Notes: generated from the letters alone by a model not told the origin. DNA of 64,000 nucleotides from Candidatus Pacearchaeota archaeon (GCA_041649045.1 JBAZNV010000001.1:19756-83755); one strand, 5' to 3'. Positions 19,452 to 38,605 are shown, counted from the stretch's first letter. Made by a program: numbers and translations.

Positions 19452-19467
19452 ATAGCCCCTCCAGGAT
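19452..19467 (+). repeat. att-like direct repeat (distal copy of tRNA-Gln 3' end)
   Basis: Exact 16-mer match to tRNA-Gln 3' terminus. Confidence 0.6.
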
Positions 19468-19498
19468 GTCTGAGGATTTTGTATCAGTATTGTGGAAC

Positions 19499-20353
19499 TC
19501 ATATTTTTGTACCTTTTATTTTAAGTTCAGATTCAGGCCATTCTTTGAATATTTTTTCAGGATTTGCTTCCAAATTTTTGATCAAGTCTTTCGTTTGTTT
19601 AATCATATTTTTAAGATTATTGATTGCTTCCTTTTTTCTTGGATTTTTGCTTTTTTTAACATACTCCATGTATTTATTAAATCGGCGTATGTTTTCATAA
19701 AAACAATCTATTTTGTCATTATTAAGAGATTTATTAAAATATAATGACTTCCTTTTTTTGCGATTAGAATTTTTTTCAGTAAAATCATAACTTCCGTGAA
19801 ACAACCCGAAATCGTAAGGCTTGAAATTATTCTCCTCCTTATTCTCTCCGCGATATTTTTCAGTACACTTATCTATAATTCTTCTGCGATATTCTTCCCA
19901 TTCTGCCTCATTATTTTTTTCTGCTGAAGGATCAAGTTTTTTCAAAAATTCAGAATTAAATGACATAAAAACAATGTTGTTTATTTTTTCTAACGGAAAT
20001 TCCTCCTTAAGAAAGGTATATTTCGCCGGTAGGAAAAATATTTTTTGATTATTTTTAGGATGAAATTCATCAATCAAAAATTTCGGAAATGATTTTACTC
20101 CTAATGTGCCCGAATCGCCTCCAAGTTTAGATATTTTTTTATAATATTTAGAATTGTATTTTCCACCGTTCTTTTTGAATTCATCAAGTTGTTTTTGATC
20201 GCAGACCTTCTCTATAGATATGAGTTCGTCATCAAAATTTGAAAAAGCCAATAAATCCTTATGTTGCCATTTAATTTCGTTTAACATTTGTTTTGGAATT
20301 GTGAACATCTCTTGTTTTCCTCCTCTTTTCAATTTGCTTTCATTGGTGTACAT
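19499..20353 (-). CDS. hypothetical Lys-rich protein (element cargo)
   Basis: ORF only; no recognisable domain. Confidence 0.4.
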   Translation of the reverse strand: MYTNESKLKRGGKQEMFTIPKQMLNEIKWQHKDLLAFSNFDDELISIEKVCDQKQLDEFKKNGGKYNSKYYKKISKLGGDSGTLGVKSFPKFLIDEFHPKNNQKIFFLPAKYTFLKEEFPLEKINNIVFMSFNSEFLKKLDPSAEKNNEAEWEEYRRRIIDKCTEKYRGENKEENNFKPYDFGLFHGSYDFTEKNSNRKKRKSLYFNKSLNNDKIDCFYENIRRFNKYMEYVKKSKNPRKKEAINNLKNMIKQTKDLIKNLEANPEKIFKEWPESELKIKGTKI

Positions 20354-20463
20354 AATGTAGCTACATTGTGTCTATTTTTAAAACTTGCTATTTAGATACT
20401 TTTAGGATACTCACTATTCCGTTACGGCAAGTATTTTTAAAACAAAAAAACACAGAGGAGCTC

Positions 20464-20919
20464 ATGACGAAAGGACTTTATTCATTATTTCTGAGAAGAT
20501 TGTCAGAAATAAAATCCAGAAAAGAGATAATCCCTTTTCCGATGGTTTTTTCAAAATTGTGCAGTTGTTTCTCGATTACAAAAGCAGAATGCTGGGAGAT
20601 TCTTTTCCTGCTCCGGGATGTAGAATTTATTGAGATCATTCGAGCGCATGGAGTAAAAATTTTAAATAAAGATTATGAGGAACGAAATATTTCTGAGTCC
20701 CAGAAGTATTGCATTAGCAAGTGTTCTAAATGTAATAAAAATTTCAGAGCAAAGATTGCTGTTCGGGAAACATGTAACGAATGTGAAGAAAAATGGAAAG
20801 ATGAATTGGAAAATAAAGTTAAAAAAAGATTAAAGGATGATGAGAAAAATGGATTCAAAAATCCCGAATGGATAATTAAGCTTCAGGAAATAATGAAGGA
20901 AAAAGGAAATGAGTTTTAA
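20464..20919 (+). CDS. hypothetical protein with putative winged helix and C-terminal Cys4 zinc ribbon
   Basis: CSKCNKN...CNECEE; start at ATG 20464 preceded by GGAG. Confidence 0.4.
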   Translation: MTKGLYSLFLRRLSEIKSRKEIIPFPMVFSKLCSCFSITKAECWEILFLLRDVEFIEIIRAHGVKILNKDYEERNISESQKYCISKCSKCNKNFRAKIAVRETCNECEEKWKDELENKVKKRLKDDEKNGFKNPEWIIKLQEIMKEKGNEF

Positions 20920-20990
20920 TTTTACGTCTACAGCATAAAGAAAAATTTAATCGGTATAGACATATCGTTATAGTATATCGTAGAGGATTA

Positions 20991-22241
20991 TCATCTCCAG
21001 AATTGTCTTATAGAAAGACCTTGCAGTCCTTTTTTACTTGGGTCATCTTTGTCCCCTACTCTTCGGGCATATAGGATTGGAGGAACTCTCTGACTTACAC
21101 TATTGTACCCTAACGAAAAAGCTCTTATTTGATAAAAATCATGATCTACATCTAAACCGACAGCAATACCTTTCTTTTCTGCAACTTCTTTTCCCCAGGC
21201 ATATCTAAACATTACTTCCAATACTGCTTTTCCTAAAAGAGTAGCACCTTGATTTTTAATAAATAATTCTTTTGCATCTTTCAAGTCTTTTTCGGAAAAA
21301 CTTTTCCGTCCATCAAGTTTACCGAATTTCATAAGTCTCATCATAACTTTTTGACAATCTTGCGCAATATCTCTAAAATCGCCAGAAATATTCTCTACAT
21401 CTAAATCTCTCCAGGAAACGCCAAATTCACTTAAACATAATTCTTCTGCACGCTGATAAGTAATTACCGCATCCCTTGGATAGACGGTCAATCCTTTTTC
21501 TGAAGAATCCTCTGCTATTCTTTCAAGATCTTTGAAATGGGTATTCATTGTATCTCTTAAATCCACAAGTCTTCCTTCTGAATAATATTTTAAAAAAACT
21601 TGAGGGAAAACCGAGTTCATTCCTCTTGGCTCCCCACTAAACTGGTGAATATTAATATTGCCCTGATGAGATGCCGAATTTCTTATTATTCCTTTCAAGA
21701 GATTTATTGCTCTTATCGAATAGACTGGGTCAATCTCTGGTCGGAGAGTATCTCTGCCTTTTTCTCTGCTTTGTTTATGTGCGCATAAATAAGTAGATAT
21801 ATTAACCGGATCTCCAGATAGGCATCTCTCAGTAAAAGAAACTAAATAAGAAAATGGATTTGTATCATTCCTGCTTATCCCATTATAATTTATTTTAAAT
21901 CCACTAATTAAATAAGGGAATAAACCAAAAATTTCCTCAAGACCAAGATTACTCCTTGTTCTCTTATCTAAACATTCAAACAAGTGTCGAGCAACTTTTA
22001 CTTCATCTCTCAACGGAATCTTCCCAGTAATCAACGCTACTATGGAAGACATTACCCTTTCCCACCTTTGGGGATTTTTTTGTGGAACTAAATTTAATTC
22101 AGAGATATCTCTTTTTGAAACCTGAAGATGCTCATTGCCGTATAGCAATTTGTTAGCTTCATTGATTGCCTCTTTAATATAAAGTTGTTGTGTTTCAAAT
22201 ACTGACCCGTCTGGCCTTAAGCTATAAATTGCCAAGCTCAT
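20991..22241 (-). CDS. hypothetical protein (416 aa), higher-GC block
   Basis: No recognisable motif; co-oriented and overlapping with HDAC-like gene. Confidence 0.45.
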   Translation of the reverse strand: MSLAIYSLRPDGSVFETQQLYIKEAINEANKLLYGNEHLQVSKRDISELNLVPQKNPQRWERVMSSIVALITGKIPLRDEVKVARHLFECLDKRTRSNLGLEEIFGLFPYLISGFKINYNGISRNDTNPFSYLVSFTERCLSGDPVNISTYLCAHKQSREKGRDTLRPEIDPVYSIRAINLLKGIIRNSASHQGNINIHQFSGEPRGMNSVFPQVFLKYYSEGRLVDLRDTMNTHFKDLERIAEDSSEKGLTVYPRDAVITYQRAEELCLSEFGVSWRDLDVENISGDFRDIAQDCQKVMMRLMKFGKLDGRKSFSEKDLKDAKELFIKNQGATLLGKAVLEVMFRYAWGKEVAEKKGIAVGLDVDHDFYQIRAFSLGYNSVSQRVPPILYARRVGDKDDPSKKGLQGLSIRQFWR

Positions 22242-23181
22242 TTAATTTTCCCTCCAATCGACCAATATTTAAATTGAATCTTGCTAAAACTTCTTTAGTG
22301 GAATAGGTTAGCTCTTCTGGCTTTGACTGTTTGCCATTTACTCCCTCAACAAAGGATTTCGCACAAATTAAAACATCTTCGTGATATCCTCCTTCTAATA
22401 CCGCAAAAATAGGATAACCCAACCGCGAGAGATTGAATCCAAACTGCATATACCCTGCAACACTATAATTCAAATCCAGCAATCTATCTTTAAAATATCC
22501 ATCAAATCCTGCAGAGACCCCGATTACATCTGGTTTAAATCTATCTATTTGTTTTTTAAAAAACTCTAAAGACCCTAAAAGAATATCGTCACCAGATTCT
22601 GGAGGAACTGGCAAATTTAAATTTAATCCTTTTGCTTCTCCATATCCTATACGAGTTATATCCCCACTGCGACTTGCATAACTTCTATCCTGGAAAACTG
22701 AACACAAGAGAAGATGAGGATTTTTATAAAAAATTTTTTCTGTCCCATTTCCATGATGACCATCTATATCTATTATGCAAACTCTCTTCCCAGAATCAAT
22801 TAACTTTTGAGCAGCTATTGCTATGTTGTTTAAAAAACAAAATCCTTCAGAGACGTCTCTACTGGCATGATGTCCCGGTGGGCGAGTTAGAGCAAACAGT
22901 CCTTCTTGAGACGCCTTAATTGCCTGTCTTACTGATGAATAAATTGCAGGAAGTGTTTTCTCATCAGGCAATATCTCCGCCAATCGGACTTTGGTTTTAC
23001 AATGACCTTTTATTTTTTTTAAAAGTGTTTGACTATGTACTCTCAAAATATCTTTCTCAACATTAGATTCTAAATGGACTCTTTCCGCTACTTTTTCTAC
23101 TCCATCTAAACGATAATTCCCATCAGCATTTTTTTCTTGAAAATTATATTCTAAGGAAAGAGGATCATAGATTAGTTTCAT
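22222..23181 (-). CDS. histone deacetylase-family amidohydrolase (HDAC/AcuC/APAH-like)
   Basis: RPPGHHA, IDIDGHHGNGT, EGGY motifs. Confidence 0.75.
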   Translation of the reverse strand: MKLIYDPLSLEYNFQEKNADGNYRLDGVEKVAERVHLESNVEKDILRVHSQTLLKKIKGHCKTKVRLAEILPDEKTLPAIYSSVRQAIKASQEGLFALTRPPGHHASRDVSEGFCFLNNIAIAAQKLIDSGKRVCIIDIDGHHGNGTEKIFYKNPHLLLCSVFQDRSYASRSGDITRIGYGEAKGLNLNLPVPPESGDDILLGSLEFFKKQIDRFKPDVIGVSAGFDGYFKDRLLDLNYSVAGYMQFGFNLSRLGYPIFAVLEGGYHEDVLICAKSFVEGVNGKQSKPEELTYSTKEVLARFNLNIGRLEGKLNELGNL

Positions 23182-25087
23182 CTTTTACAATCCTCCTCGC
23201 TAAAGCCTCTAAGCTTTCGGAATCGAAAGAAAAATGTTTTATTAGGTCTTCTATGCTCCCTGTTTCCCCAAAGTTAAATCCATGACCGTGAATTGTCGAA
23301 GGACGAGATATCCTATTGCCGAAAACTGCTGAAGCCACAAGGGATTTTAAAATCTCTGCGTTACCATTATAAACTGTTAAAACAGGCCGATCATTTTCTA
23401 TGAGGTTTAAAAATTTACTATTTTCCAAGCCTTTAAGGTTTATAGCATTAATCACTCTTGATCCTATGGCATGTCTTACTTCTAATTGTTTAGCTGCTTC
23501 TACTAAATTAGGCACAACAAAACCACTTCCAATAAGGGTAATATCTGGTTTGGAGTCACTCTCAAAAACTTTATAAAAATCAATATTACGCTCCTCCCTC
23601 TTTTCCCGAATTAAACGAGTCACATTGGCTTTATGAGTTCTCACAATAGTAAGGGCTTCATTTGTACTAAAAAAATGATCGAATACATTATACATGTCTT
23701 GAACATCTGCAGGTTCGTAGAATTTAGTTCCCGGCATAAATAATGGTACAGCTGAGACCCCAGATGCTTGATGGGTTTGCCCATTTTTTCCTTGAGTAAT
23801 TCCGCTTAATTCTGACAATAAAAGAAACTTACTTCTTCCTTGAGCAGCAGCATTAAGTTGATCTGATGCTCTGTATAGAAAAGCATCAAAATAATTTATA
23901 AATATCCTTGCGTTTTTGTCGGTTTGAGAGATCCCATGAGCCATAGCCACAGTGTGTTGCTCTCTCAACCCAGTATCAATGTAAGTACTTCCATCTCTCA
24001 ATCTTAAATCTTGTACATCTGATTCATGGATTAAATCGGGAGTAATAAAAAACAAAGGCATACCTTTTGATTTTGATTCAACCATCAATTTAAAAAAATA
24101 ATCTCCTTGCGCTGAGTCCATGTTTTTACTATTTTCGGGATTAATAGGTATACTTATTAGATATTCTCTGTTTTCATCGGGAATTCCCCTCGATGATTTT
24201 TTATTGAATTCCTTTCTTTTTTCTTGTAGTATTCTTTCCAATTTGCCCCTATCTGCTCTCATGCTTCCTAATTCAATCGCTGAAGAAAGAGCAGACACTT
24301 CTTTTAAGGCACCGATAGTATGAAAGCCATTAAAATGATTTTCACAACCGTCAATCAGGTAGCCTTTAGTTGTATTGGCGATAATAAAAACTGGTTTATT
24401 TCTTTTTCTTGCTAAGTCATAAGCCGAAAGAATTTCAGAAAAATCATGCCCATTTTCAATTCGTAAAACATCCCAGCCATACCCCTTCCAAACCATCCCA
24501 ACATCAGAAGAATCAACCTCATTAGTGGGTCGAGACAACTGCTTACCATTTTTATCGAGAATGCATATTATGTTGGGCAAACCTAAAGACCCAATATGCC
24601 TTGCTGCCTCGCTAACATTTCCTTCTTGTTCTTCCCCATCCCCTAAAAAAACATAGTGCATGGAAGGAAGACCCTTTTGGCGAGTTATTAGCGCAGATCC
24701 CGTCGCATAAGAAAGTAGCATTCCTAAAGACCCGCTGGGGCTCATATCAACTCCAGGCACAGAATGCATACATTCATGACCTTTAAGCCTGGACCCAAGA
24801 GTCCTATAGCCTGACAATTCTTCCTCATTTATCCAATTAAGAAGGGAAAAAATTTTATATCGCAATGGTCCAATATGACCTCTAACGTAAACCCTATCTC
24901 TTGAAGGATTCGAAGGATCATTAGGGTTATAATTTAAAATACCCCCAAAATATAATGCAGTCATTAACTCCACTGAAGAGGAGCAGGCACCAAGATGCCC
25001 GCTCTTTGCATTCCTTATTGTTTTGAAAGCATCGGCTCTTATTTCTCTTGACAAATCCTTTAAATATTCTAAATCCCTGATCGTCAT
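23165..25087 (-). CDS. tkt: transketolase (fused N- and C-terminal halves, bacterial-type, 640 aa)
   Basis: GHLGACSSSVEL...NPSRDRVYVRGH, LGSRLKGH, TPP motif GDGEEQEGNVSEA...ILDKNGKQLSRPT, C-terminal pyrimidine-binding domain. Confidence 0.75.
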   Translation of the reverse strand: MTIRDLEYLKDLSREIRADAFKTIRNAKSGHLGACSSSVELMTALYFGGILNYNPNDPSNPSRDRVYVRGHIGPLRYKIFSLLNWINEEELSGYRTLGSRLKGHECMHSVPGVDMSPSGSLGMLLSYATGSALITRQKGLPSMHYVFLGDGEEQEGNVSEAARHIGSLGLPNIICILDKNGKQLSRPTNEVDSSDVGMVWKGYGWDVLRIENGHDFSEILSAYDLARKRNKPVFIIANTTKGYLIDGCENHFNGFHTIGALKEVSALSSAIELGSMRADRGKLERILQEKRKEFNKKSSRGIPDENREYLISIPINPENSKNMDSAQGDYFFKLMVESKSKGMPLFFITPDLIHESDVQDLRLRDGSTYIDTGLREQHTVAMAHGISQTDKNARIFINYFDAFLYRASDQLNAAAQGRSKFLLLSELSGITQGKNGQTHQASGVSAVPLFMPGTKFYEPADVQDMYNVFDHFFSTNEALTIVRTHKANVTRLIREKREERNIDFYKVFESDSKPDITLIGSGFVVPNLVEAAKQLEVRHAIGSRVINAINLKGLENSKFLNLIENDRPVLTVYNGNAEILKSLVASAVFGNRISRPSTIHGHGFNFGETGSIEDLIKHFSFDSESLEALARRIVKDETNL

Positions 25088-25141
25088 ATAAAATAGGCAT
25101 AGATAGATCTTTAAATATTTATCTAATTATAAAGTAGTAAC

Positions 25142-26146
25142 ATGGATAAGAAAAACATTAAACTCTGGGAAACTAATATTAAAAGATTTATTTTTCATAA
25201 TAAATTATTTAAAAAAAATTTAAAAAAAGATGAAATTAAGATAAAACTTCTTGGCGAAGGCACGAGCACTTTAAACTTTTTAGTAGAGATAAATAAAAAT
25301 AAATTTGTTTTTAGATTTAATGTGAATAATTCTCGCTTAGATCATTTCAAGAAAGAATACAAGTTCTTTAATCTATTTAAAAAAAATAAATTTATTCCTC
25401 AATTGATCTATAAGGATTTAAGTTTAGAAAACATTTTCAAAAGACCATTTATGATTCTTCTTTATATAAAAGGAATTTCTCTCGCCAAAACCCATTACAA
25501 AATAAGTAGCAAGCTTATCAAAAATCTCGCCAAAGAAGTTTCGAATATTCATTTATTAAATAAAAATCCCTTGTTTCTAAAAGAGGAGTGCGTAAAAGAC
25601 AGGATAGAAAACAGGCTAATATTTTTAAAAAAAAGTCTTCCCGTAGAATCAATAAACTGCCTCAGAAAAATTTGTAGCCTATTGCCTGTAATTCCAATAT
25701 CAATAAAGAAAAAATTGATAATCCATAATAACATTTGGGAAGGTAACATTATTTATTATAAAGGAGGACTAAGAATTATTGATTATGAAACTGCCTGTTT
25801 TGGAGAACCTGCTCAGGAGATAGCCCATATATTTGTAGATTTTAAAACAGGATATTTATTTTCAAAAGAAGAACAAAATATTTTCATAAAGGAATATTTA
25901 AAATATGTTTCAGATAAAACTCTTCTTGAAAAAGTAAACTTCTTTATGAAATTTGAAGCATTTGATTCTTTTCTTAGAACTATAGAATACGATCTTGCCT
26001 CTAAAAACAAACTAAATAATCAAATCTTAAGAGATACTATGAAGAGTAATTCTGGCAGGAAAAAACTAAGAAGTTACTTTAATTTACTAAAAAAATTAGA
26101 AATTATTGATAAAAAATACTCTTTAAAGAAGATTTATCCTGTATAG
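25142..26146 (+). CDS. phosphotransferase-family protein (APH/choline-kinase-like fold); catalytic-loop Asp appears replaced (HNN instead of HxD)
   Basis: IHNNIWEGN ... IIDYE motif arrangement of APH-like kinases. Confidence 0.5.
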   Translation: MDKKNIKLWETNIKRFIFHNKLFKKNLKKDEIKIKLLGEGTSTLNFLVEINKNKFVFRFNVNNSRLDHFKKEYKFFNLFKKNKFIPQLIYKDLSLENIFKRPFMILLYIKGISLAKTHYKISSKLIKNLAKEVSNIHLLNKNPLFLKEECVKDRIENRLIFLKKSLPVESINCLRKICSLLPVIPISIKKKLIIHNNIWEGNIIYYKGGLRIIDYETACFGEPAQEIAHIFVDFKTGYLFSKEEQNIFIKEYLKYVSDKTLLEKVNFFMKFEAFDSFLRTIEYDLASKNKLNNQILRDTMKSNSGRKKLRSYFNLLKKLEIIDKKYSLKKIYPV

Positions 26147-26478
26147 ATTGCAAAAGATTTTGGAGTTTCCCAAAGTCTCAATTCATATAATCCCTTAAGC
26201 TTTTTTCTTAACCTTCCCCATATCCAGATGATAACATTCTCTACTGTGGGATTTGGAACATAGTCATTTAAACATTGGTGATCTAAGATAGAAATAGCTT
26301 CTTTATTAACAATTCCTTCTATTTCTTTTAAATCCATTAAGATACCCTTTTTATTCAATTTACCAGTTATAAAAACTTGAAGTCGATATGTATGCCCATG
26401 AAGATTTCTACACTTTCCTTCATGCCATTCAAGATGATGAGCCGAGTCAAATGTAAACTCTCTAACGAGACTAATCAT
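26134..26478 (-). CDS. queD: 6-pyruvoyl-tetrahydropterin synthase / QueD-family protein
   Basis: FTFDSAHHL...GKCRNLHGHTY signature. Confidence 0.7.
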   Translation of the reverse strand: MISLVREFTFDSAHHLEWHEGKCRNLHGHTYRLQVFITGKLNKKGILMDLKEIEGIVNKEAISILDHQCLNDYVPNPTVENVIIWIWGRLRKKLKGLYELRLWETPKSFAIYTG

Positions 26479-26965
26479 CCGAACTCTCCTCGATCTTATC
26501 CATTCCGTTCAGCATTAAAATAGCCTTTTCACACATCATCTTAATAAAATTCGTTTCTTCCGACGTCACTTTTTTCTTAGACAACAAAATTTCAAGAAAA
26601 TCTTCATTTAGAATACTTATTTTATCGGCAATCTGCATAATCTTTCCCTCTCTTGAATATGGATTTTTACCATTACCGTGATTAAGAATACAATCTTCAT
26701 CAACCTCATCCAAATAAATTTCTTCCTCTTTAAGAATCTTAAGGGAATTATCTGCGTGATTTTGCATATCATTAAGAAAATATCCAATATCATGAACCCA
26801 TGCTCGAGAAACCATTTTGTCCTCATTAAGTTTAAATCTCTTTGATAAAATTTTTACTGCAGAAACAACTCCCTGAGTATGAGCAAAGAAAAAATCTCCA
26901 TCAGTTGTTCTTTTATCTAAAAGATATTTTTTCGCAATTTTTTCAGCTCTCAATGGGTCTAACAT
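26471..26965 (-). CDS. HD-domain (HDIG) phosphohydrolase
   Basis: WVHDIGY motif, His/Asp pattern. Confidence 0.6.
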   Translation of the reverse strand: MLDPLRAEKIAKKYLLDKRTTDGDFFFAHTQGVVSAVKILSKRFKLNEDKMVSRAWVHDIGYFLNDMQNHADNSLKILKEEEIYLDEVDEDCILNHGNGKNPYSREGKIMQIADKISILNEDFLEILLSKKKVTSEETNFIKMMCEKAILMLNGMDKIEESSDD

Positions 26966-27022
26966 AAAAACATCTTATTTCTAATGATTAAATATCTTTT
27001 GTTTTCAACAGGGATGGCATGG

Positions 27023-27367
27023 TTAAATCCATTTTTTAAAACTCTCAATTATTGGACTCCACAAATCTCCATTTCCTATTTTTGAGATTATCTCGTTAAT
27101 CGGAGCATAAACAATTTTTTTTACTGATTCATTTTCTTCGATATACTCTTCGCTATCGTCTCCAATTTTTGCAAAACATATAATCTGTTTTTCTTTCTTG
27201 TTGTCATCAATTTTATTTATCATTAAAAATTTCAGCTCGCACCCTTGAATATTTTTTTTAATTTCCTCGATGCATTCTCGATTTGCCGTTTCAATAACTG
27301 ATTCACCTTCCTCGACATGTCCTCCAGGAAATCCCAAATATCTCTTTTTGAGCGTCAGTAAATGCAT
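27023..27367 (-). CDS. NUDIX hydrolase, probably N-terminally truncated
   Basis: Nudix box [25 protein letters not shown] begins at residue 12; closed frame immediately upstream. Confidence 0.55.
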
Positions 27368-27506
27368 CGGATATATATTTTAAAAAAATTAGCCCAAGAA
27401 CCACGTGCTTATATTCTGCAGCATCCATATTGCTTTGAAGCTTATCCGCTGCTTGCCAAAGCTTCTGCTCAAACCCGATTTCCCCATTCGTTTGCGACAT
27501 GTTCAA
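27303..27506 (-). pseudogene. hsdM: fragment: N-terminal domain of type I restriction-modification methylase HsdM
   Basis: [36 protein letters not shown] matches HsdM_N consensus; ORF then diverges and stops; no N6-MTase domain follows. Confidence 0.6.
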
Positions 27507-27603
27507 ACAAAAAATCCAAAGTTTTTATGGCTTTGCTTAATTTAATAAATGCGAAAAGTATATAAACCCTTTATGTCTTAAAAAGACATCAATAAGGAAT
27601 AAT

Positions 27604-28653
27604 TTGACATTTAAATGTCCGATCAACATTATGGAAATAAAATATACATTTTGGAACAATAAAGGAGGCACTGGGAAAACTAGCCTTGCTTTTCAGTCTA
27701 TTACAAGATATGCTGAAAAATACCCGGATAAAAAAATTTTAGCAATAGATATTTGCCCACAAGCCAATTTGTCTGAATTAATGTTAGGCGGATTAAACAA
27801 TCATGGTAGCGAGAGATTATTATATTGTCATGGACAGGTGCCGCGATGCAGCCTTGGGGGGTATTTTCAACTTCGTTTACCTTCTCCGTATATTCCACCA
27901 GATTTTAATGCTCATGATTTTATAACCAAACCGAGCACATATAATGGTGCGATACCTTCAAATATAGACTTGGTATGTGGAGATCCTTTATTAGAATTAC
28001 AATCAAATGCCGTAAATAGTTTAGCCAACAACTCTATACCTGGCACAAATACTTGGATTGGAGTTGTTGATTGGTTAAATGATTTTTTAAAAAAAATTAA
28101 AGATGACTATGATGTTGTTTTTATGGACTGCAATCCAAGTTTTTCTATGTATACGCAAATTGCATTAGCAACGACAGATAGAATTATTTTGCCTGTAATG
28201 GCAGACGATTCTTCACGTCGTGCAATTCAAAATGCATTATCTCTTGTATTCGGATTGAGGCTTCCTTCAGAGATATATGCTAATTACGCTTTCGCTACAA
28301 AACTCAAGGAATCAAAACGCAAGCTTCCAAAAGTACATTTAATAGTAAAGAATCGTTTAACTCAATACATGGTACCCGCATCCGCCTATGCTGCCGTATT
28401 GAATACAATTGAAAGTGATATCCGAGGATTATTATTAACAAATTCAGAAATTTTTTCATTTACAGACGTTAATGAAGGATTTGTAGAAATTAGAGATTTC
28501 CAAACTACTGGAGTTGTTGCATTTGCCAAGGGATTGCCATTTTCAAAAGTGGATATTGGAAAGCAAACTATTGGAGGACATAGAGTCCAAGTAAATCGAA
28601 ATTATTTAACAAATAGCAAGAATGCAATAGAGTTGTTAGTTAATAAATTATAA
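27604..28653 (+). CDS. ParA/MinD-family ATPase with about 100-aa C-terminal extension
   Basis: Deviant Walker A NKGGTGKTS, ILAIDICPQANLSE, DYDVVFMDCNPS; probable start at internal Met 27631. Confidence 0.65.
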   Translation: MTFKCPINIMEIKYTFWNNKGGTGKTSLAFQSITRYAEKYPDKKILAIDICPQANLSELMLGGLNNHGSERLLYCHGQVPRCSLGGYFQLRLPSPYIPPDFNAHDFITKPSTYNGAIPSNIDLVCGDPLLELQSNAVNSLANNSIPGTNTWIGVVDWLNDFLKKIKDDYDVVFMDCNPSFSMYTQIALATTDRIILPVMADDSSRRAIQNALSLVFGLRLPSEIYANYAFATKLKESKRKLPKVHLIVKNRLTQYMVPASAYAAVLNTIESDIRGLLLTNSEIFSFTDVNEGFVEIRDFQTTGVVAFAKGLPFSKVDIGKQTIGGHRVQVNRNYLTNSKNAIELLVNKL

Positions 28654-28914
28654 AATTAATTTTTTTGCTTCTTTCAAAACATCCTTGCCTTTTTTTGTTA
28701 TTTTATAAAACTTAAAAACTCTATCTCCGGGATTTTTACAAACAATAAGTTTTTTCTCAATTAATTCCTTTAATGCCCTTGACGTATGTGCCTTGTACAT
28801 CCCCGTTGTTTTCATTAGTTCTACTTGGCTTCTTTCTCTTTCGTTTAACAATTCTAATAACTCCAATCTCCTTTGTCCTCTCGCAACATAGCTAATCAAA
28901 CTTGAATCACCCAT
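28648..28914 (-). CDS. winged-helix transcriptional regulator (ArsR/MarR-like)
   Basis: RLELLELLNERERSQVELMKTTGMYKAHTSRALKELIEKKLI wHTH pattern. Confidence 0.55.
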   Translation of the reverse strand: MGDSSLISYVARGQRRLELLELLNERERSQVELMKTTGMYKAHTSRALKELIEKKLIVCKNPGDRVFKFYKITKKGKDVLKEAKKLIL

Positions 28915-29008
28915 ATACCAAACGAGTGACCAAATCTTTTATTATGGGGTTACCTTATGAGTTACCAATATTAACAACATTTAAAAAACCCAGAAACCTC
29001 AGAAACAT

Positions 29009-29473
29009 ATGCAAGAAAAAAATAAATCGTGGTTTCGACGACATAAAATTCTCGGATCAATAATTGGTTTTTTTCTTTTTGTTATTGGAATTGGGATAAT
29101 ATCAAATCTAAACTCAGAAAATTCTCCCACGCCTGAGCATAATTACATTTGCCCAGAACTTTCAAATTCAAAAATTTTAGCTTACGATAGTTTTGTTCAG
29201 TTATGGAATGTCGAAGTTTCTGTTTATAAAACTAATAACACCGAGGTAATTTATCCTTATAGTCTAACTTCAACTATAATTTATTGCAATCCGGCTACAG
29301 AAGAAGGTCAAAATGCCAACTGGGTTTATTGTGGAGATACCTTTAGACCTATTATCGCTCAATATACCGACAAATCAGGAAGTATCATTAGGAAACGAAG
29401 TGTGGAAATAATTCTTGACAAAAATACGAAAGAATACGTTTCTACAAAATGCGACAGTTATAATTTATTGTAA
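29009..29473 (+). CDS. hypothetical secreted/membrane-anchored protein
   Basis: N-terminal TM/signal; no domain. Confidence 0.4.
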   Translation: MQEKNKSWFRRHKILGSIIGFFLFVIGIGIISNLNSENSPTPEHNYICPELSNSKILAYDSFVQLWNVEVSVYKTNNTEVIYPYSLTSTIIYCNPATEEGQNANWVYCGDTFRPIIAQYTDKSGSIIRKRSVEIILDKNTKEYVSTKCDSYNLL

Positions 29474-29483
29474 ATTTGATTTT

Positions 29484-30437
29484 ATGGAAAATAAAATAAC
29501 ATTCAAAAAACTCGTGGAACTTGTTCTTGAAGAAGCAAAGCAACCATTAACGCCTTTGGAAATTTGGGGAAAGGCTCAGGAAATGCATTTAACTGAAAAA
29601 CTTGGAACCGTCGGTAAAACACCTCATCTGACAATTAGTGCTCAACTTTATGTCGATATTCGCGATAATCCGAAATCTCCTTTTTACCAATTCAGTAGTC
29701 GCCCTGGAAGATTTTTCCTTAAAAAATACAAATCCGGTTTTAAACCCGAGGAAATACCCCTCGAAGAAGAAACAGAAGAAACAAAAACAAAATACCACGA
29801 ACGCGACCTGCATCCTCTTCTTGTAAAATTTGTTAATTCCGCTCCAAACTTCAAAGCTCACGTAAAAACAATTTACCATGAAATAGCGATGAGAAATAAA
29901 AAGGGATTGAATAAATGGCTATATCCTGATTTGGTCGGTGTTCATCTACCATTCCTCGATTTTGATGTACATACATTACAAGTGCAGAAGGAACTTTACT
30001 GGACCGCAGTTCGTTTTTTTAGTTTCGAAATGAAAAAGGAATTAAACATTGGAAATCTCCGTGAATGTTATTTTCAGGCTGTCTCAAACTCTAACTGGGC
30101 AAATGAAGGCTATCTTGTTGTTCTTAACATAATTGATCAGGATGGTGAATTAATGTCGGAGCTTAGAAGATTAAATAATGCCTTTGGAATCGGAGTTATT
30201 CAACTAAATTCCATTGAAATAAATGAGAGCGAGATAATTCTTCCAGCCAAGATAAAACAGGAACTTGATTGGGATACAATTGATTTATTACTGAAAAAAA
30301 ACGGAAATTTCAAAGAGTTCATGGAAATCGTCAAAGGCGACATTACGCTTGGCAAAATTTCAAACAAAGACAATTATGACTCTATAATTCCGGATGAAGC
30401 TTTTCAAGAGTATATTGAGGAGAAGGGGATTGTTTAA
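29484..30437 (+). CDS. HARE-HTH domain fused to PD-(D/E)xK restriction-endonuclease-like nuclease domain
   Basis: HARE-HTH: LTPLEIWGKAQEM...GKTPHLTISAQLYVDIRDNPKSPFYQFSSRPGRFFL; nuclease motifs HERD, YPDLVGV, FEMKK. Confidence 0.6.
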   Translation: MENKITFKKLVELVLEEAKQPLTPLEIWGKAQEMHLTEKLGTVGKTPHLTISAQLYVDIRDNPKSPFYQFSSRPGRFFLKKYKSGFKPEEIPLEEETEETKTKYHERDLHPLLVKFVNSAPNFKAHVKTIYHEIAMRNKKGLNKWLYPDLVGVHLPFLDFDVHTLQVQKELYWTAVRFFSFEMKKELNIGNLRECYFQAVSNSNWANEGYLVVLNIIDQDGELMSELRRLNNAFGIGVIQLNSIEINESEIILPAKIKQELDWDTIDLLLKKNGNFKEFMEIVKGDITLGKISNKDNYDSIIPDEAFQEYIEEKGIV

Positions 30438-30525
30438 GTCAATATCCGACCAAAATTCCCGACCCCTGTGAACATTGAGAAATATCTGATTTTTTCATGT
30501 TTCATTCAATTCTACGCTGAAAAAA

Positions 30526-30544
30526 GCGAATATTCGCGAATATT
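30526..30544. promoter_or_regulatory. overlapping perfect palindromes (gcgaatattcgc / aatattcgcgaatatt) between convergent nuclease and methylase genes, followed by T-run
   Basis: Read directly from sequence; possible bidirectional terminator or operator. Confidence 0.4.
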
Positions 30545-30552
30545 TTCATTTT

Positions 30553-31200
30553 TTACCTCAGTTTCATTGGGTTGTTTAGTTCGTCTTTTGCTCTATTTCC
30601 TGTCAAATTTTCCCATCTTTCTATGATATGTGAGCAAAAATTGGGATCAATCTCTATTAAAAAGCAGTTTCTTTTCTTGTTTTCGCATGCTATTAGTGTT
30701 GAACCGCTACCGCCAAAAACATCAAGTACGTTTTCTTCTTGCCTTGTGCTGTTTATAATAAAGTGTTCTGCTAATTTTGCGGGTTTCTGGGTTGGATGGA
30801 TGTATGTGTTTGTCCCCTGTCCCCTCTGAATTTCTTTTCTTTGTAATAAAAATAAAGCATTGGCTCGTATTGTGAATGATAATCTCTTGTTGGTATTGAG
30901 AAGCCGTTCTTTACCCACATAATAAATGTTGGCCTGTATCCCAGGTTCTTCATACACCAAGGGTATATTTGTTCGATTTGATTTGTTCCGCAGCACATAT
31001 AAACTGCGCCTTTTACGATTCCTGTGTTGATTAAATCGAGCAATGTTGTTATCTGGAAGTTTACATCATTCATTATTCCGCCAAGCATATTTTTACTCCT
31101 TCCGCCTTTTCTTCTTGCTTCTGGTATGTAGTTTACGCTGTATGGCGGGTCTGTCCATCATATCTGCTTTCTGCCCGGAAGAAAGCTTCATTGCAGTTAT
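30553..31200 (-). pseudogene. beta-class (N6A/N4C) DNA methyltransferase disrupted by at least two frameshifts
   Basis: Motifs in three frames: DPPYS (upstream of annotated ATG, preceded by in-frame TGA), IMWVKNG...HSQYEPMLYF (frame A), HPTQKP...DVFGGSGST (frame B); shift within G-run agaggggacaggggac. Confidence 0.65.
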
Positions 31201-31274
31201 CTGCAAATTGAACAATGCAAAAATTGAACAGTAAACGTATAACTTATATGGAAACGTTAATAAAAATAAAAATT

Positions 31275-31775
31275 TTAAAATGGAGTGGTTATTTTTTGCT
31301 CTTTTTCTAATTTAAGTACCCAACTTATTATTTCAATATCTTTTCCAAGTTCGGTTAATATAAAATAGTGGGTCTTTGCTGCGAAATACTCCATTTGTCG
31401 CTTAGCCATTTTTGAACTCCATTCCTTAAATTTATCCATCACAATTTTATTATCTCCTTGTAAGTTGTCTACATTCCAAATATCCATTATCGAAATTTGT
31501 TTCAAAAGTCCTAATTCAATAAGGGAATAAAGATAATTATAAGCAGTGTTCTTTGACATAAATAATTTTGTTACAAATTCACCAATTCTTCCTGGAGAAT
31601 TATTAAGTAAAACTCCATACGTTTTCCTCAGTTTACTTTTCTCTTTTAACATTCTTTTAATTAACTCTTTTTTATAAGAATGACCTTCCATTGTTTCTTT
31701 GATTTCCAACGCAAGTTCTTCAAATGTCCTTGAGCCCTTCTCTCTTTTTTCAATTCTTATGTTTGGCACATCCAT
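31275..31775 (-). CDS. hypothetical protein with putative winged helix (element-encoded regulator/replication protein)
   Basis: Start at internal Met with GGAGG upstream; TAYNYLYSLIELGLLKQ helix. Confidence 0.4.
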   Translation of the reverse strand: MDVPNIRIEKREKGSRTFEELALEIKETMEGHSYKKELIKRMLKEKSKLRKTYGVLLNNSPGRIGEFVTKLFMSKNTAYNYLYSLIELGLLKQISIMDIWNVDNLQGDNKIVMDKFKEWSSKMAKRQMEYFAAKTHYFILTELGKDIEIISWVLKLEKEQKITTPF

Positions 31776-31831
31776 CTTCCTTGCCCTCCTTCTCCATAAT
31801 CTCAATCATCTTTTGCACAAGAGGATTCAGT

Positions 31832-31972
31832 TCACTTCTCTTCATCTCTACTATCCCCCTCTTCAATGAGAAATCTTATTGTGTCGCCTCGAGTTCGTCG
31901 AAATTTTTTTGCTAACCTGTCGAGCTTTTCTCTCGTTGCTGTATCTAACCTGAAATTAAATGTTGTATTCAT
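31832..31972 (-). CDS. ribbon-helix-helix (CopG/Arc family) protein, 46 aa
   Basis: Not in ORF track (below the 60-aa cutoff); MNTTFNFRLDTATREKLDRLAKKFRRTRGDTIRFLIEEGDSRDEEK fits beta-alpha-alpha RHH. Confidence 0.55.
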   Translation of the reverse strand: MNTTFNFRLDTATREKLDRLAKKFRRTRGDTIRFLIEEGDSRDEEK

Positions 31973-32025
31973 AATAATTACAAGGGAATATGGTATTTAC
32001 GGAGTTACAAACAAAAAGTATCTAA

Positions 32026-33243
32026 TTATTCCACCAGGTTAATAATTTGCTTTAGAGAGCTGACCACGTCCTTTCTTTCTCTTAAAAAACTCATCAGAGC
32101 TACTTCGGTGCTTTCAATTCTTGATTTGTTTACTTCAACTATTACCTCTCCTTCAAGTCTTCTGACCTCAAGTTGTTTTTCCATCTCTTGTTGCTTTCTA
32201 AGTAACTCTGCCATCGCCGAGCTTATAACATCAAGCTTTGTTTTCAATTCTTTGTTTTCATTCTCGGTTTTTACAAAATTATCTCCGGCAAGTTTTATTG
32301 TCTCATCATCTATCAATCCATTCATGTCAATATATCTATCTGGCATTTTTGATGATGCTGACCAGCCATATCTGTAAGAAATCTGAAATCTGTTAAGATG
32401 GTTCGCGTAATAAGTCGCTGATCCGTGCCTGAAAGTATGAGGTGAAATCATTCTACTAAGAAATTGTTTACCCATTCTGTTTGTATATTTTCTCAGGGTC
32501 CCGTAATTTATCGTACATAAAAAATCCTCTTCTCCAAATTTATTCATTTGCAGATATTCGTCAATTATTTTCGGATACAGCGGAAGATTTATTGTTCTCG
32601 GTTTAGTTTTTGAAATTCTTATTCTGACTTTGTAAACTCCATTTTCTTTCACGATGTCGCTCCTTTTGATGTTATAAAATTCTTCGATTCTTGCTCCACT
32701 GTCAAATAAAACAGCTAAAATAAATCGGTAAATTAATTTAGACGAATTTTCTATCAATCGGTCGTTCTCTTGTTTGCTCAAACTTCTGACTTCCGGCATT
32801 CTTGTACTTGTGTCGATGTATTGGACGAGTTTGGGATAATTCTCTTTGTCTCCGAGAAGATATTTGTAATATTTTCTGATAAACTTTTTTATTGTAGACT
32901 GCGTTTCCCATGTGTAAGGATTCCCTTTGGAAGATTTTACAATTCCTCTTTCAAGATTTAGAATAAATGTGTTCATATCGTCTTCTGTGACCTTATCGAA
33001 CGGTTTCTTTAACCACTCGCGATCCATATTCAAAAGTATACCAAGCATTCGCTGCAGCCTTCCAGGCTTGATTTTTCTCTTCTGTCCTTTAAGAATTGTC
33101 TTTCCGATTTCTGCGTCGTATAAAAACTGTAAAATCAAATTTCTGTTCTCAGGAATTAATAACCTGGTCGACCCTGATCTTAGTTTTTCCAACGATCGAT
33201 AATATTTATCTGGGTTTTGGAGTCTGACTATTTTGTCGTCCAT
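32026..33243 (-). CDS. int: tyrosine-type site-specific recombinase/integrase
   Basis: C-terminal catalytic residues: R...HTFRHGSAT...RYGW...Y; adjacent to tRNA gene. Confidence 0.8.
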   Translation of the reverse strand: MDDKIVRLQNPDKYYRSLEKLRSGSTRLLIPENRNLILQFLYDAEIGKTILKGQKRKIKPGRLQRMLGILLNMDREWLKKPFDKVTEDDMNTFILNLERGIVKSSKGNPYTWETQSTIKKFIRKYYKYLLGDKENYPKLVQYIDTSTRMPEVRSLSKQENDRLIENSSKLIYRFILAVLFDSGARIEEFYNIKRSDIVKENGVYKVRIRISKTKPRTINLPLYPKIIDEYLQMNKFGEEDFLCTINYGTLRKYTNRMGKQFLSRMISPHTFRHGSATYYANHLNRFQISYRYGWSASSKMPDRYIDMNGLIDDETIKLAGDNFVKTENENKELKTKLDVISSAMAELLRKQQEMEKQLEVRRLEGEVIVEVNKSRIESTEVALMSFLRERKDVVSSLKQIINLVE

Positions 33244-33327
33244 GGAATATTAACGAAAACCTCCGATATAGTTTTTTAGACTTGAAAAGTATCTAAAATG
33301 TTCCGCAAAACAGGGACAGAAACTTCC

Positions 33328-33343
33328 ATAGCCCCTCCAGGAT
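33328..33343 (+). repeat. att-like direct repeat (proximal copy, overlapping tRNA-Gln 3' end)
   Basis: Identical 16-mer to 19452..19467. Confidence 0.6.
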
Positions 33344-33401
33344 TCGAACCTGGGTCACGGGAGTCAGAGTCCCGTATCCTTGACCGCTAGACTAAAGGGC
33401 T
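33329..33401 (-). tRNA. tRNA-Gln (anticodon CUG)
   Basis: Manual fold: acceptor AGCCCUU/AGGGGCU, anticodon stem CGGGA/UCCCG loop CUCUGAC, T-loop GGUUCGAAUCC. Confidence 0.75.
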
Positions 33402-33556
33402 ATAGAAAATTCAGAAAAAGAAAGTTTAAAAGTTTAGTGGACCTTTAAATTCATTTGTAAAATTTTAGAGAAACTTGCTTGCGTGAATGGCAATGATTGT
33501 GAAAATTAGCGCATTCTTTTAAAAAACTTTATAATGTATGTTGGTTTTAATATTTC

Positions 33557-38604: not shown

Positions 38605-38605
38605 T

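What the first reader, a model, noticed from the sequence alone, without database searches (positions are those of the whole stretch)
19452..33343. tRNA-Gln-targeted integrated element bounded by an exact 16-bp direct repeat
The 16-mer atagcccctccaggat occurs twice in the same orientation. One copy is at 19452..19467. The other, at 33328..33343, forms the 3' end of tRNA-Gln(CUG). Two chance 16-mer matches in 64 kb are expected at about 1e-5. A tyrosine integrase (HTFRH...RYGW...Y) sits directly beside the tRNA, followed by a 46-aa CopG-type RHH gene. The roughly 13.9-kb interval carries:
- a compositionally distinct block (transketolase, HDAC-like, unknown 416-aa protein);
- a ParA-like ATPase;
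- decayed R-M genes;
- pterin/nucleotide-type enzymes.
This is the classic architecture of an integrated plasmid or provirus, and the cargo is largely uncharacterised.
Basis: partly seen in the sequence, partly recalled or inferred. Interest (0 to 1): 0.75.

Follow-up and report, generated by a model that had tools for sequence, protein, structure and literature searches.

The report
Integrated mobile element in tRNA-Gln
A 13.9-kb mobile element sits in the end of a glutamine tRNA gene of an ultra-small (DPANN) archaeon, put there by its own integrase; this is an ordinary kind of genomic island, notable mainly for carrying a conserved, uncharacterised metabolic gene cluster.

Summary
ATAGCCCCTCCAGGAT occurs only at 19452-19467 and 33328-33343. 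The second copy is the 3' end of tRNA-Gln(CUG). An intact tyrosine integrase gene starts 85 nt beyond it.

The interpretation as an integrated element is supported by comparison with related loci:
- Integrases 74-84% identical lie next to tRNA-Gln in every other Woese/Pacearchaeota locus with upstream sequence, in differing host neighbourhoods and with differing downstream genes.
- Two other elements (L067, L095) are bounded by repeats in the same tRNA register.
- Both end with a homolog of the 284-aa gene that ends this one.

Both ends of the 13.9-kb interval therefore belong to one element family, and the middle is variable cargo.

No virion, packaging, conjugation or replication gene was found. 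A sister element at the same site is a tailed provirus. This one is best called a cryptic, plasmid-like integrative element.

Its cargo includes a six-gene cluster (HD, PTPS, kinase, transketolase-like, deacetylase-like, unknown 416-aa protein). The same cluster is conserved in another archaeon that has no integrase nearby.

No empty site or circular form could be found, so current mobility is inferred. Verdict: a new member of a known kind, of moderate interest.

The parts
19452..19467 (.). Distal att core: the displaced copy of the tRNA-Gln 3' end. It marks the element/host junction on the rubrerythrin side.
   Evidence: Exact 16-mer, one of only two copies in the window. The same register is seen at the distal ends of L067, L084 and L095.
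19468..19498 (-). 31-nt distal arm between the e284 stop codon and the core. On the minus strand it reads GTTCCACAATACTGATACAAAATCCTCAGAC.
   Evidence: L067 has an arm of the same length that also starts GTTCCAC, between its e284 homolog and a 15/16 core copy.
19499..20353 (-). e284: terminal backbone gene. It has an AbrB/MazE/SpoVT-like N-terminus and an unknown C-terminal part.
   Evidence: 49% identical to the last gene of the L067 element, which carries PF04014. 27% identical over 272 aa to the last gene of the L095 element. Weak PHROG hits fall on residues 5-59. The AF2 model is poor, pLDDT 47.
20368..20919 (+). e183: backbone gene of unknown function. The likely start is the ATG at 20464, giving 151 aa, as called in public assemblies.
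   Evidence: 51% identical to L067 16004-16453, in the same position beside the e284 homolog. No Pfam, PHROG or PADLOC hit. Gene call of 151 aa in L005.
20991..22241 (-). e416: cargo. Uncharacterised enzyme family with a class-I aminoacyl-tRNA-synthetase/cyclodipeptide-synthase-like fold. It is the last gene of the TK-HDAC-e416 operon.
22222..23181 (-). Cargo: histone-deacetylase-family amidohydrolase. It overlaps both neighbouring genes.
   Evidence: PF00850 E 5e-54. 57% identical in the L085 cluster.
23165..25087 (-). Cargo: divergent full-length transketolase-like ThDP enzyme.
   Evidence: PF00456, PF02779 and PF02780 hits. NCBIfam transketolase models score 249 bits against a cut-off of 488. 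68% identical in the L085 cluster.
25142..26146 (+). Cargo: APH-family small-molecule kinase, divergent from the TK operon.
   Evidence: PF01636 E 2e-10. Weak hits to thiamine kinase and GntI models. It is paired with e416 homologs in L085 and in a bacterial contig, L087.
26134..26965 (-). Cargo: PTPS/QueD-family enzyme (26134-26478) and HD-domain hydrolase (26471-26965). The two genes overlap.
   Evidence: PF01242 E 4e-31 and PF01966 E 1e-8. QueD model 85.8 bits against a cut-off of 89.25. 67% and 62% identical in the L085 cluster.
27023..27367 (-). Cargo: Nudix hydrolase.
   Evidence: PF00293 E 1e-8. Two Nudix genes occupy the same position in L085.
27604..28653 (+). ParA-like P-loop ATPase: possible partition function for an episomal stage.
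   Evidence: PF13614 E 3e-20. phrog_164 ParA-like partition protein E 2e-35. Not found in any related element.
28648..28914 (-). Small winged-helix regulator (wHTH88): shared accessory module.
   Evidence: MarR/HTH_45-type hits. 64% identical in the L074 element, also present in L076.
29009..30437 (+). e154 (membrane-anchored, 29009-29473) and a HARE-HTH protein (29415-30437). The public gene call for the latter is 317 aa.
   Evidence: PF05066 E 7e-13. HARE-HTH is 66-72% identical in the L075 and L076 elements, 52% in L081. e154 is also in L072, L074, L076 and L081, in the same order relative to the integrase.
30553..31088 (-). N6/N4 DNA methyltransferase pseudogene.
   Evidence: PF01555 matches the C-terminal part only. 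The DPPY frame is preceded by stop codons, and a frameshift separates it from the HPTQKP/FGGSGST part.
31275..31805 (-). e176: wHTH-containing protein of unknown function.
   Evidence: Weak HTH hits only. No homolog in related elements at E 1e-3.
31832..31972 (-). 46-aa ribbon-helix-helix protein. It is always the gene after the integrase and is a candidate regulator or excision factor.
   Evidence: RHH_1 E 0.004 and CopG-like PHROGs. 40-70% identical directly after the integrase in 17 of the 18 related loci that hold sequence beyond the integrase gene; L077 gave no hit. TTAGATACTTT motif lies about 45 nt upstream.
32026..33243 (-). Tyrosine integrase, intact, 405 aa.
   Evidence: PF00589 and phrog_1. 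Catalytic R185, K212/214, H269, R272, W294 and Y304 present. 394 homologs, 27 of them at 66-84% identity over the full length.
33244..33327 (-). Integrase-proximal att arm and integrase promoter region. It holds the family-invariant GGAACATTTTAGATACTTT at 33286-33304.
   Evidence: Alignment of 12 loci. The motif is unique in the window. A TATA-like TTAGATACTTT is repeated upstream of the RHH gene here and in L097.
33328..33402 (-). tRNA-Gln(CUG), the integration target. Its last 15 nt plus 1 nt (33328-33343) form the proximal att core.
   Evidence: ARAGORN, Rfam 62.8 bits, 16-mer.

Best explanation
The interval 19452-33343 is one integrated mobile element of 13,876 bp plus a second core copy. 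It lies in the chromosome of a Pacearchaeota/Woesearchaeota (DPANN) archaeon.

Proposed mechanism:
- A circular form carried an attP with the 16-bp core ATCCTGGAGGGGCTAT. This core is identical to the 3' end of the host tRNA-Gln gene.
- The element's own classical (non-split) tyrosine integrase exchanged strands within that core.
- The tRNA was rebuilt with element-derived sequence. The original tRNA end was displaced 13.9 kb away, next to rubrerythrin.

Gene content:
- The backbone is int and RHH at the tRNA end, and e183 and e284 at the far end. In the circular form e284 would read towards attP and int.
- A HARE-HTH / e154 / wHTH module is shared with sister elements.
- Between these lies copy-specific cargo: a ParA-like ATPase and a conserved metabolic cluster (Nudix, HD, PTPS, kinase, transketolase-like, deacetylase-like, e416).
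- It has no virion, packaging, conjugation or recognisable replication genes. It is best described as a cryptic, plasmid-like integrative element (a genomic island), not a provirus.

What is shown:
- the repeat and the intact tRNA;
- the integrase with its catalytic residues;
- the family-wide tRNA-Gln association;
- the same-register repeats and the homologous end genes in independent elements.

What is inferred:
- strand exchange inside the 16 bp;
- the conserved TTAGATACTTT as a TATA-like promoter element for int and RHH;
- RHH and/or e284 as recombination or regulatory accessory factors;
- ParA-assisted episomal maintenance;
- present-day mobility.
For: The repeat and the tRNA:
- The 16-mer is present only twice, 0 of 100 shuffles.
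- It is the tRNA-Gln 3' end.

The integrase:
- It is intact with R-K-HxxR-W-Y.
- Related integrases (74-84% identical) lie about 85 nt downstream of tRNA-Gln(CTG or TTG), on the same strand. This holds in L067-L070, L072-L078, L083, L089-L094 and L097.
- Host flanks and downstream genes differ among these loci.

Unoccupied sites:
- tRNA-Gln sites with the same EndA neighbour exist in other genera. L008 and L013 are followed by RFC and other host genes with no integrase.

Other elements bounded in the same register:
- L067: cores at 9900, 17802 (15/16) and 17892.
- L095: a 19-bp repeat, 6.76 kb apart, with an integrase only 54% identical.
- L084: two distal cores.

Homologous ends:
- e284 homologs are the last gene before the distal core in L067 (49%) and L095 (27%).
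- An e183 homolog lies beside it in L067.
- The 31-nt arm from the e284 stop to the core is conserved in L067.

Other points:
- The proximal arm is conserved in 12 loci.
- No virion or packaging hit in PHROGs.
- The ParA hit is strong.
- The methyltransferase pseudogene is typical of a resident island.
- The same integrated state is seen in two independent assemblies.
Against: - No empty site was found. The closest genomes in the collections share only the right-hand (EndA) synteny.
- No circular junction was found; the attP junction is absent from IMG/VR.
- Current mobility is therefore untested.
- No replication initiator was recognised, so 'plasmid-like' rests on ParA alone.
- The metabolic cluster occurs in another archaeon with no integrase within 10 kb. 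Its presence inside the element could reflect capture of chromosomal DNA rather than long-term carriage.
- The compositional contrast with the host is modest.
- The e183/e284 backbone is documented in only two other elements.
Confidence: 0.72

Rival explanations
1. It is a degraded provirus. A tailed virus integrated at tRNA-Gln, later lost its replication, packaging and virion genes, and picked up host genes.
For: - A 79%-identical integrase at the same EndA-tRNA-Gln site in a sister host belongs to an element with tailed-virus genes. These are a pol/primase-like gene, a small terminase and a large terminase (phrog_38 E 6e-60).
- The methyltransferase here is a pseudogene.
Against: - No virion or packaging gene remnant was detected in the whole interval.
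- The integrase and both att cores are perfect.
- The far-end backbone (e183, e284, arm) is intact. It is shared with small 6.8-8 kb elements that also lack capsid genes.
Confidence: 0.1
2. It is a helper-dependent (satellite-like or mobilisable) element. It shares the integration module of a co-circulating tailed virus and relies on that virus for transfer.
For: - The same integrase/RHH/att module occurs on tailed proviruses and on small elements.
- The 8-kb L067 relative carries a small-terminase-like HTH protein but no large terminase.
- No autonomous replication or transfer genes are found here.
Against: - No terminase-like, capsid-remodelling or helper-sensing gene was recognised in the window element.
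- At 13.9 kb with a ParA, it fits a plasmid-like lifestyle equally well.
- There is no evidence of a helper virus in the same genome within the window.
Confidence: 0.1
3. It is a composite. A smaller element (int to wHTH88, about 28.6-33.3 kb) sits beside ordinary chromosomal genes (the metabolic cluster). The distal repeat belongs to an older, unrelated integration event.
For: - The metabolic cluster is chromosomal-looking in L085.
- Tandem arrays and att remnants do occur in this family, in L067 and L084.
Against: - The genes directly inside the distal repeat (e183, e284 and the 31-nt arm) are homologous to the far end of L067. That element's near end carries the same integrase and RHH.
- No internal core copy or arm remnant exists in the window.
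Confidence: 0.06
4. The repeat is a chance match next to a host XerA-type recombinase, and nothing is integrated.
For: The repeat is only 16 bp, and no empty site was found.
Against: - 0 of 100 shuffles give two copies.
- The XerA model scores 67 bits against a cut-off of 220.
- The family-wide tRNA-Gln linkage, the presence/absence among genomes and the same-register repeats elsewhere all argue against chance.
Confidence: 0.01

Closest known systems
Classical (type II, pNOB8-type / lambda-paradigm) archaeal tyrosine-integrase elements inserted in tRNA genes (review PMC8371274)
   Same: - The integrase gene stays intact after integration.
- The att site lies outside the integrase gene, at the 3' part of a tRNA gene.
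- Direct repeats flank the element.
- The catalytic R..HxxR..Y set is present.
   Different: - The att identity is 16 bp, against the 40-60 bp typical of Sulfolobales and Methanococcales elements (PMC8371274, section 17).
- The integrase is only 23-28% identical to any integrase in annotated virus or plasmid collections.
- No SAM-like N-terminal Pfam domain was detected.
- The host is a DPANN archaeon.
Cryptic integrated elements (CIE) of Thaumarchaeota (Krupovic et al. 2019, PMC6563490)
   Same: - Mesophilic archaeal host.
- Short att (median 17 bp there, 16 bp here).
- The integrase is the only universal gene.
- Size below 20 kb.
- R-M remnants and auxiliary metabolic genes as cargo.
- No virion or conjugation genes.
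   Different: - A different phylum and a different integrase family.
- A defined two-ended backbone here (int-RHH ... e183-e284), shared with sister elements.
- Strict tRNA-Gln specificity across the family.
PYG1 genomic island of Pyrococcus yayanosii (PMC5126054)
   Same: - Also inserted at the 3' end of tRNA-Gln by a classical integrase.
- Mosaic cargo including a pseudogene.
- No identified replication module.
   Different: - PYG1 has 43-bp repeats and is 21.4 kb.
- Its excision and circular form were shown experimentally.
- The integrases are not closely related; no Thermococcales hit appears among the best 120 homologs, whose few source names are all uncultured MAGs.
Bacterial tDNA genomic islands as catalogued by Islander (PMC4383910)
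   Same: Same logic: an integrase next to a regenerated tRNA gene, with a displaced 3' tRNA fragment marking the far end.
   Different: Archaeal host and archaeal promoter elements. The cargo is unrelated to the usual bacterial island functions.
Tailed proviruses of Woesearchaeota at the same site (L089-L094 here; DPANN viruses and MGEs surveyed by Wu et al. 2024, Nat Microbiol, cited in PMC13573593 but not read)
   Same: - 79%-identical integrase.
- RHH gene, proximal att arm and the EndA-tRNA-Gln target.
   Different: Those carry a pol/primase-like gene and small and large terminases. The window element has none of these and instead has ParA and a metabolic cluster.

Membership tests
Tyrosine recombinase / phage integrase family | PF00589 catalytic domain with R, K, HxxR, H/W and the Y nucleophile | tested here: met
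   PF00589 E 1e-9, phrog_1 E 7e-22. R185, K212/214, H269, R272, W294 and Y304 read from the sequence.
Classical (type II, non-suicidal) archaeal integrase element | The integrase gene is intact in the integrated state, and the att site lies outside the gene | tested here: met
   A full 405-aa ORF. The core lies 85 nt upstream of its start codon.
SSV-type (type I, suicidal) integrase element | attP lies inside the integrase gene, so integration splits the gene into two fragments at the two ends | tested here: not met
   The integrase is in one piece. The far end carries e284, not an integrase fragment.
tDNA genomic island (Islander criteria) | An intact tRNA gene at one end, a displaced 3' fragment of the same tRNA as a direct repeat at the other, and an integrase gene inside next to the tRNA | tested here: met
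tDNA genomic island (Islander criteria) | Presence/absence polymorphism: an empty attB in a related genome with the same flanks | tested here: inconclusive
   Relatives have tRNA-Gln beside EndA with no integrase (L008, L013). Their other flank is not syntenic with the rubrerythrin side. No closer relative is available.
Active integrative element | An excised circular form (attP junction) or attB junction reads | not testable with these tools
   Only assembled contigs could be searched. The predicted attP junction is absent from IMG/VR. Two assemblies show only the integrated state.
Provirus (head-tailed or other) | Capsid, portal, terminase or other virion hallmark genes | tested here: not met
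   Between Pfam and PHROGs all 18 ORFs of the interval were scanned, with no hallmark hit. No integrase relative in IMG/VR. The sister element does have terminases.
Integrative conjugative element | Conjugation ATPases (VirB4/TraG-like) and a mating-pore module | tested here: not met
   No such Pfam hits among the ORFs of the interval.
Plasmid | A replication initiator (Rep, MCM, prim-pol etc.) | tested here: not met
   None recognised by Pfam, PHROGs or NCBIfam. The unknowns e176, e183, e284 and e154 remain candidates.
Plasmid | A partition ATPase (ParA/SopA type) | tested here: met
   PF13614 E 3e-20, phrog_164 E 2e-35. All NCBIfam partition models score below their cut-offs.
Restriction-modification system | An intact methyltransferase with a cognate endonuclease | tested here: not met
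   The methyltransferase is interrupted by stops and a frameshift. The HARE-HTH neighbour has no detectable nuclease domain.

The most novel reading that the evidence does not exclude
The element may be a vehicle that moves a previously undescribed biosynthetic or salvage pathway between ultra-small symbionts.

- The six-gene cluster HD-PTPS-kinase-transketolase-like-deacetylase-like-e416 is conserved at 47-68% identity in another DPANN archaeon.
- Its kinase-e416 core recurs next to GTP cyclohydrolase I in a bacterium whose contig has a cell-division gene set (possibly CPR).
- e416 founds a small family with no Pfam model and a class-I aaRS / cyclodipeptide-synthase-like fold.

If the cluster makes or salvages a pterin- or thiamine-related compound, an integrative element would be supplying a metabolic capacity that these reduced genomes otherwise lack. 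That element shares its integration module with tailed viruses.
Probability: 0.15. Interest if true: 0.6.

Novelty: new member of a known kind. Interest (0 to 1): 0.35.

Why it matters
- **A defined element family.** Integrated elements of Woese/Pacearchaeota are little described. This locus and its relatives define a family with strict tRNA-Gln targeting, a short 16-19 bp core in a fixed register, and a two-ended backbone (int-RHH ... e284).
- **A shared integration module.** The module occurs on tailed proviruses and on small non-viral elements. That gives a handle for delimiting mobile DNA in DPANN metagenome-assembled genomes.
- **Mobile metabolic genes.** A conserved metabolic operon, including an unannotated enzyme family, can sit on mobile DNA in organisms thought to depend on others for most metabolites.
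- **No new principle.** The integration mechanism itself is the textbook one.

Tried and rejected
- **Empty-site search.** A scan of 185,579 species genomes with EndA gave 59 loci. The right-hand synteny (EndA-p300-S17e-Alba) is conserved, but nothing left of the tRNA is. No empty site with both flanks was found.
- **Exact-protein look-ups.** Look-ups of EndA, rubrerythrin, e284 and the integrase returned only the same population with the element in place.
- **Logan contig breaks.** Breaks at the tRNA looked at first like a population branch point. In fact the two contigs leave a 19-nt gap over the anticodon arm (33355-33373) and do not end at the core. I do not count them as evidence of excision. 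A near-identical second tRNA-Gln gene is one possible cause, but that is untested.
- **attP junction.** The predicted junction was searched in IMG/VR with no match. The integrase has no relatives in IMG/VR.
- **e284.** The homolog search gave only one relative. Its AF2 model was too poor for fold search.
- **Other scans.**
  - PADLOC gave nothing meaningful.
  - Rfam found no riboswitch or other RNA in the element.
  - The sigma-70 promoter and terminator scan was at background level, and is not applicable to archaea.
  - The AlphaFold-database fold library was unavailable.
- **Compositional peak at 43-46 kb.** I suspected a second island, but it falls inside a single 954-aa ORF, the SMC-like gene. 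I attribute the peak to that gene's own composition, which was not tested directly.
- **Inverted repeats around the core.** I looked for core-type integrase sites in the reconstructed attP. Only weak 5-nt symmetry (GTTCC/GGAAC) and a promoter-region palindrome were found, too weak to assign.

Full report
**Observation.** The 16-mer ATAGCCCCTCCAGGAT occurs exactly twice in the 64-kb window, at 19452-19467 and 33328-33343. Both copies are in the same orientation. There is no further match with up to two mismatches, and no shuffle out of 100 gave two copies.

ARAGORN and Rfam place tRNA-Gln(CUG) at 33328/9-33401/2 on the minus strand. On the tRNA strand the repeat reads ATCCTGGAGGGGCTAT. It comprises the last two T-loop bases, the 3' strands of the T and acceptor stems, the discriminator, and one base beyond.

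Identity stops sharply on both sides. A longer 23-nt piece of the tRNA end is unique in the window.

- integrase 32026-33243 with R185, K212/214, H269xxR272, W294 and Y304;
- a 46-aa weak RHH;
- a ParA-like ATPase;
- Nudix, HD and PTPS;
- an APH-type kinase;
- a transketolase-like enzyme and an HDAC-family enzyme;
- an unknown 416-aa protein.

**Host and setting.** The flanks encode archaeal housekeeping genes. To the left are aRF1, archease, Ogg and rubrerythrin. To the right are tRNA-splicing endonuclease EndA, S17e, Alba and DnaG. Public copies of the proteins are labelled Candidatus Pacearchaeota. The nearest species genomes are Woesearchaeota/Nanoarchaeota MAGs, with EndA at most 70% identical. 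An ENA assembly and a separate Logan assembly match the window base for base over the whole interval, except for one tandem-repeat copy outside it.

**Is it an insertion?** The direct test, an empty site with both flanks, could not be done.
- In about 50 related genomes the EndA-p300-S17e-Alba side is syntenic, but nothing to the left of the tRNA is.
- Two genera (L008, L013) keep tRNA-Gln beside EndA in the same orientation. There it is followed by host genes such as replication factor C, with no integrase.

The indirect evidence is strong. The integrase has 27 full-length relatives at 66-84% identity.

In all 18 such loci (74-84% identical) that hold upstream sequence and could be read, the integrase gene lies about 85 nt downstream of tRNA-Gln, on the same strand. 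These loci are:
- L067-L070, L072-L074, L077 and L089-L094, with anticodon CTG;
- L075, L076, L078, L083 and L097, with anticodon TTG.

The host genes on the other side of the tRNA differ among these loci: EndA, DAC/VTT, radical SAM, tRNA-Thr or ParA. The genes after the integrase also differ. Linkage to the tRNA end, independent of neighbourhood, is the signature of site-specific integration.

**Boundaries.** Three other family members show the far end.
- L067 (integrase 81%) has exact cores at 9900 and 17892 and a 15/16 copy at 17802.
- L095 (integrase only 54%) has a 19-bp repeat 6.76 kb apart, starting at the same position relative to the T-stem.
- L084 has two distal cores 122 nt apart.

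The last gene before the distal core is a homolog of e284 (window 19499-20353). It is 49% identical in L067 and 27% over 272 aa in L095. L067 also has an e183 homolog beside it, and the same 31-nt spacer starting GTTCCAC between the stop codon and the core.

So the two ends of the window interval are homologous to the two ends of independently bounded elements. At one end are tRNA, core, arm, int and RHH. At the other are e183, e284, arm and core. This makes a chance repeat or a composite of unrelated parts unlikely. No internal core or arm remnant exists in the window.

**What kind of element.** Between Pfam and PHROGs all 18 ORFs of the interval were scanned, ten of them also with NCBIfam and ten with PADLOC. 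No capsid, portal, terminase, conjugation or replication-initiator gene was found.

A sister element at the same EndA-tRNA-Gln site is a tailed provirus. Its integrase is 79% identical and it was read on 24 contigs. It carries a pol/primase-like gene, a small terminase and a large terminase, phrog_38 E 6e-60. The integration module is therefore shared between viruses and small non-viral elements.

The window copy shares a HARE-HTH / e154 / wHTH module with several sisters at 52-72% identity. It alone has a ParA-like ATPase and the metabolic genes. Its DNA methyltransferase is a pseudogene. I class it as a cryptic, plasmid-like integrative element. A degraded provirus or a helper-dependent element are minority alternatives.

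**How it most likely works.**
- Shown: the core identity, the regenerated tRNA and the intact integrase.
- Inferred from the biology of tyrosine recombinases: strand exchange within the 16-bp identity between attP on a circle and the tRNA end.
- The integrase-proximal arm is strikingly conserved in 12 loci: GTCTCAGTTT, then GGAACATTTTAGATACTTT.
- TTAGATACTTT recurs about 45 nt upstream of the RHH gene, here and in L097. I read it as an archaeal TATA-type promoter element, possibly with an operator, because TTTTAGA-N11-TCTAAAA is palindromic.
- In the circular form e284 would be followed by attP and int in one direction. This placement, its AbrB/MazE-type DNA-binding N-terminus and its conservation make e284, along with the RHH protein, a candidate accessory factor for recombination or its control. 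This is speculation.

**Cargo.** The block from 20991 to 26965 holds e416, HDAC-like, transketolase-like, kinase, PTPS and HD. It is conserved gene for gene at 47-68% amino-acid identity in a 117-kb archaeal contig (L085). There, two Nudix genes lie alongside and no integrase lies within 10 kb.

In a bacterial contig (L087) the kinase-e416 pair lies next to GTP cyclohydrolase I.

The function of the cluster is unknown. A pterin- or cofactor-related pathway is a guess from PTPS, the FolE neighbour and the thiamine-kinase-like hits.

The block is the most compositionally deviant part of the interval, but only mildly so.

**Comparison and novelty.** The element follows the classical archaeal and bacterial tDNA-island design (PMC8371274, PMC4383910).
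- Its short core fits mesophilic archaeal elements, where the median is 17 bp in Thaumarchaeota (PMC6563490).
- PYG1 of Pyrococcus also targets tRNA-Gln, and its excision was shown experimentally (PMC5126054).
- The integrase is only 23-28% identical to anything in annotated virus or plasmid collections.
- DPANN viruses and mobile elements have been surveyed at scale (Wu et al. 2024, cited in PMC13573593). I could not read that paper to check whether this family is included.

It is a new member of a known kind. The finding is sound but not surprising. The main added value is the family definition and the mobile metabolic cluster.

Noticed in passing
window 17832-18143: A perfect 156-nt tandem duplication lies inside the DUF5648/fn3 surface-protein gene (17324-18232). 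The ENA assembly of the same population has only one copy, giving a 246-aa gene instead of 302 aa. This is either copy-number variation or an assembly collapse.
   Followed up: partly
window 20991-27367; L085 4111-11254; L087 9078-12833: The cluster Nudix / HD-PTPS / kinase / transketolase-like-HDAC-like-e416 is conserved in another DPANN archaeon. The kinase-e416 pair lies next to GTP cyclohydrolase I in a bacterial contig. e416 belongs to an unannotated family of 118 representatives with a class-I aaRS / cyclodipeptide-synthase-like fold.
   Followed up: partly
L067 17765-18772: After the e284 homolog come four features in a row: a 15/16 core copy (17802), an attL-arm-like remnant (GTCTCTGTTTGGAGGAAC), an exact core (17892), and a second, shorter integrase gene (287 aa, PF00589). 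This looks like a tandem array with a decayed middle element.
   Followed up: partly
L084 7013-7150: Two copies of the core that differ at the variable base (ATCCTGGCGGGGCTAT and ATCCTGGTGGGGCTAT) lie 122 nt apart at the far end of another element. This suggests repeated integration at the same site.
   Followed up: no
L089-L094: A tailed provirus (pol/primase-like gene, small and large terminases) sits at the same EndA-tRNA-Gln site in a sister host and was read on 24 contigs. All six contigs examined end 0.3-5 kb into the element. This suggests strain-level variation inside it.
   Followed up: partly
L095 9790-9915: The sequence upstream of the 54%-identical integrase has a T-arm and a tRNA-Gln-like 3' end. 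A 28-nt insert lies exactly at the left edge of the 19-bp repeat. Neither ARAGORN nor Rfam recognises a tRNA. It could be a non-canonical intron or a tRNA disrupted by integration.
   Followed up: partly
window 33355-33373: Two Logan contigs of SRR8542065 stop on either side of the tRNA-Gln anticodon arm and leave 19 nt uncovered. A near-identical second tRNA-Gln gene (e.g. the UUG isoacceptor) in that genome might explain it; this was not tested.
   Followed up: partly
window 42772-45636: The strongest compositional outlier of the window (GC 0.25, AT skew -0.42, tetranucleotide distance 0.043) lies inside the 954-aa SMC-like gene. I read it as that gene's own composition rather than foreign DNA; this was not tested.
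   Followed up: yes
window about 38380-38900: A HicA/HicB toxin-antitoxin pair and a DUF7557 gene lie in the host flank about 5 kb right of the tRNA. A DUF7557 gene also lies near the conserved metabolic cluster in L085.
   Followed up: no
L095 12930-14024: The small 6.8-kb sister element carries a Cap4-type nuclease gene (a CBASS-effector-like domain). Elements of this family therefore also carry defence-type cargo.
   Followed up: no
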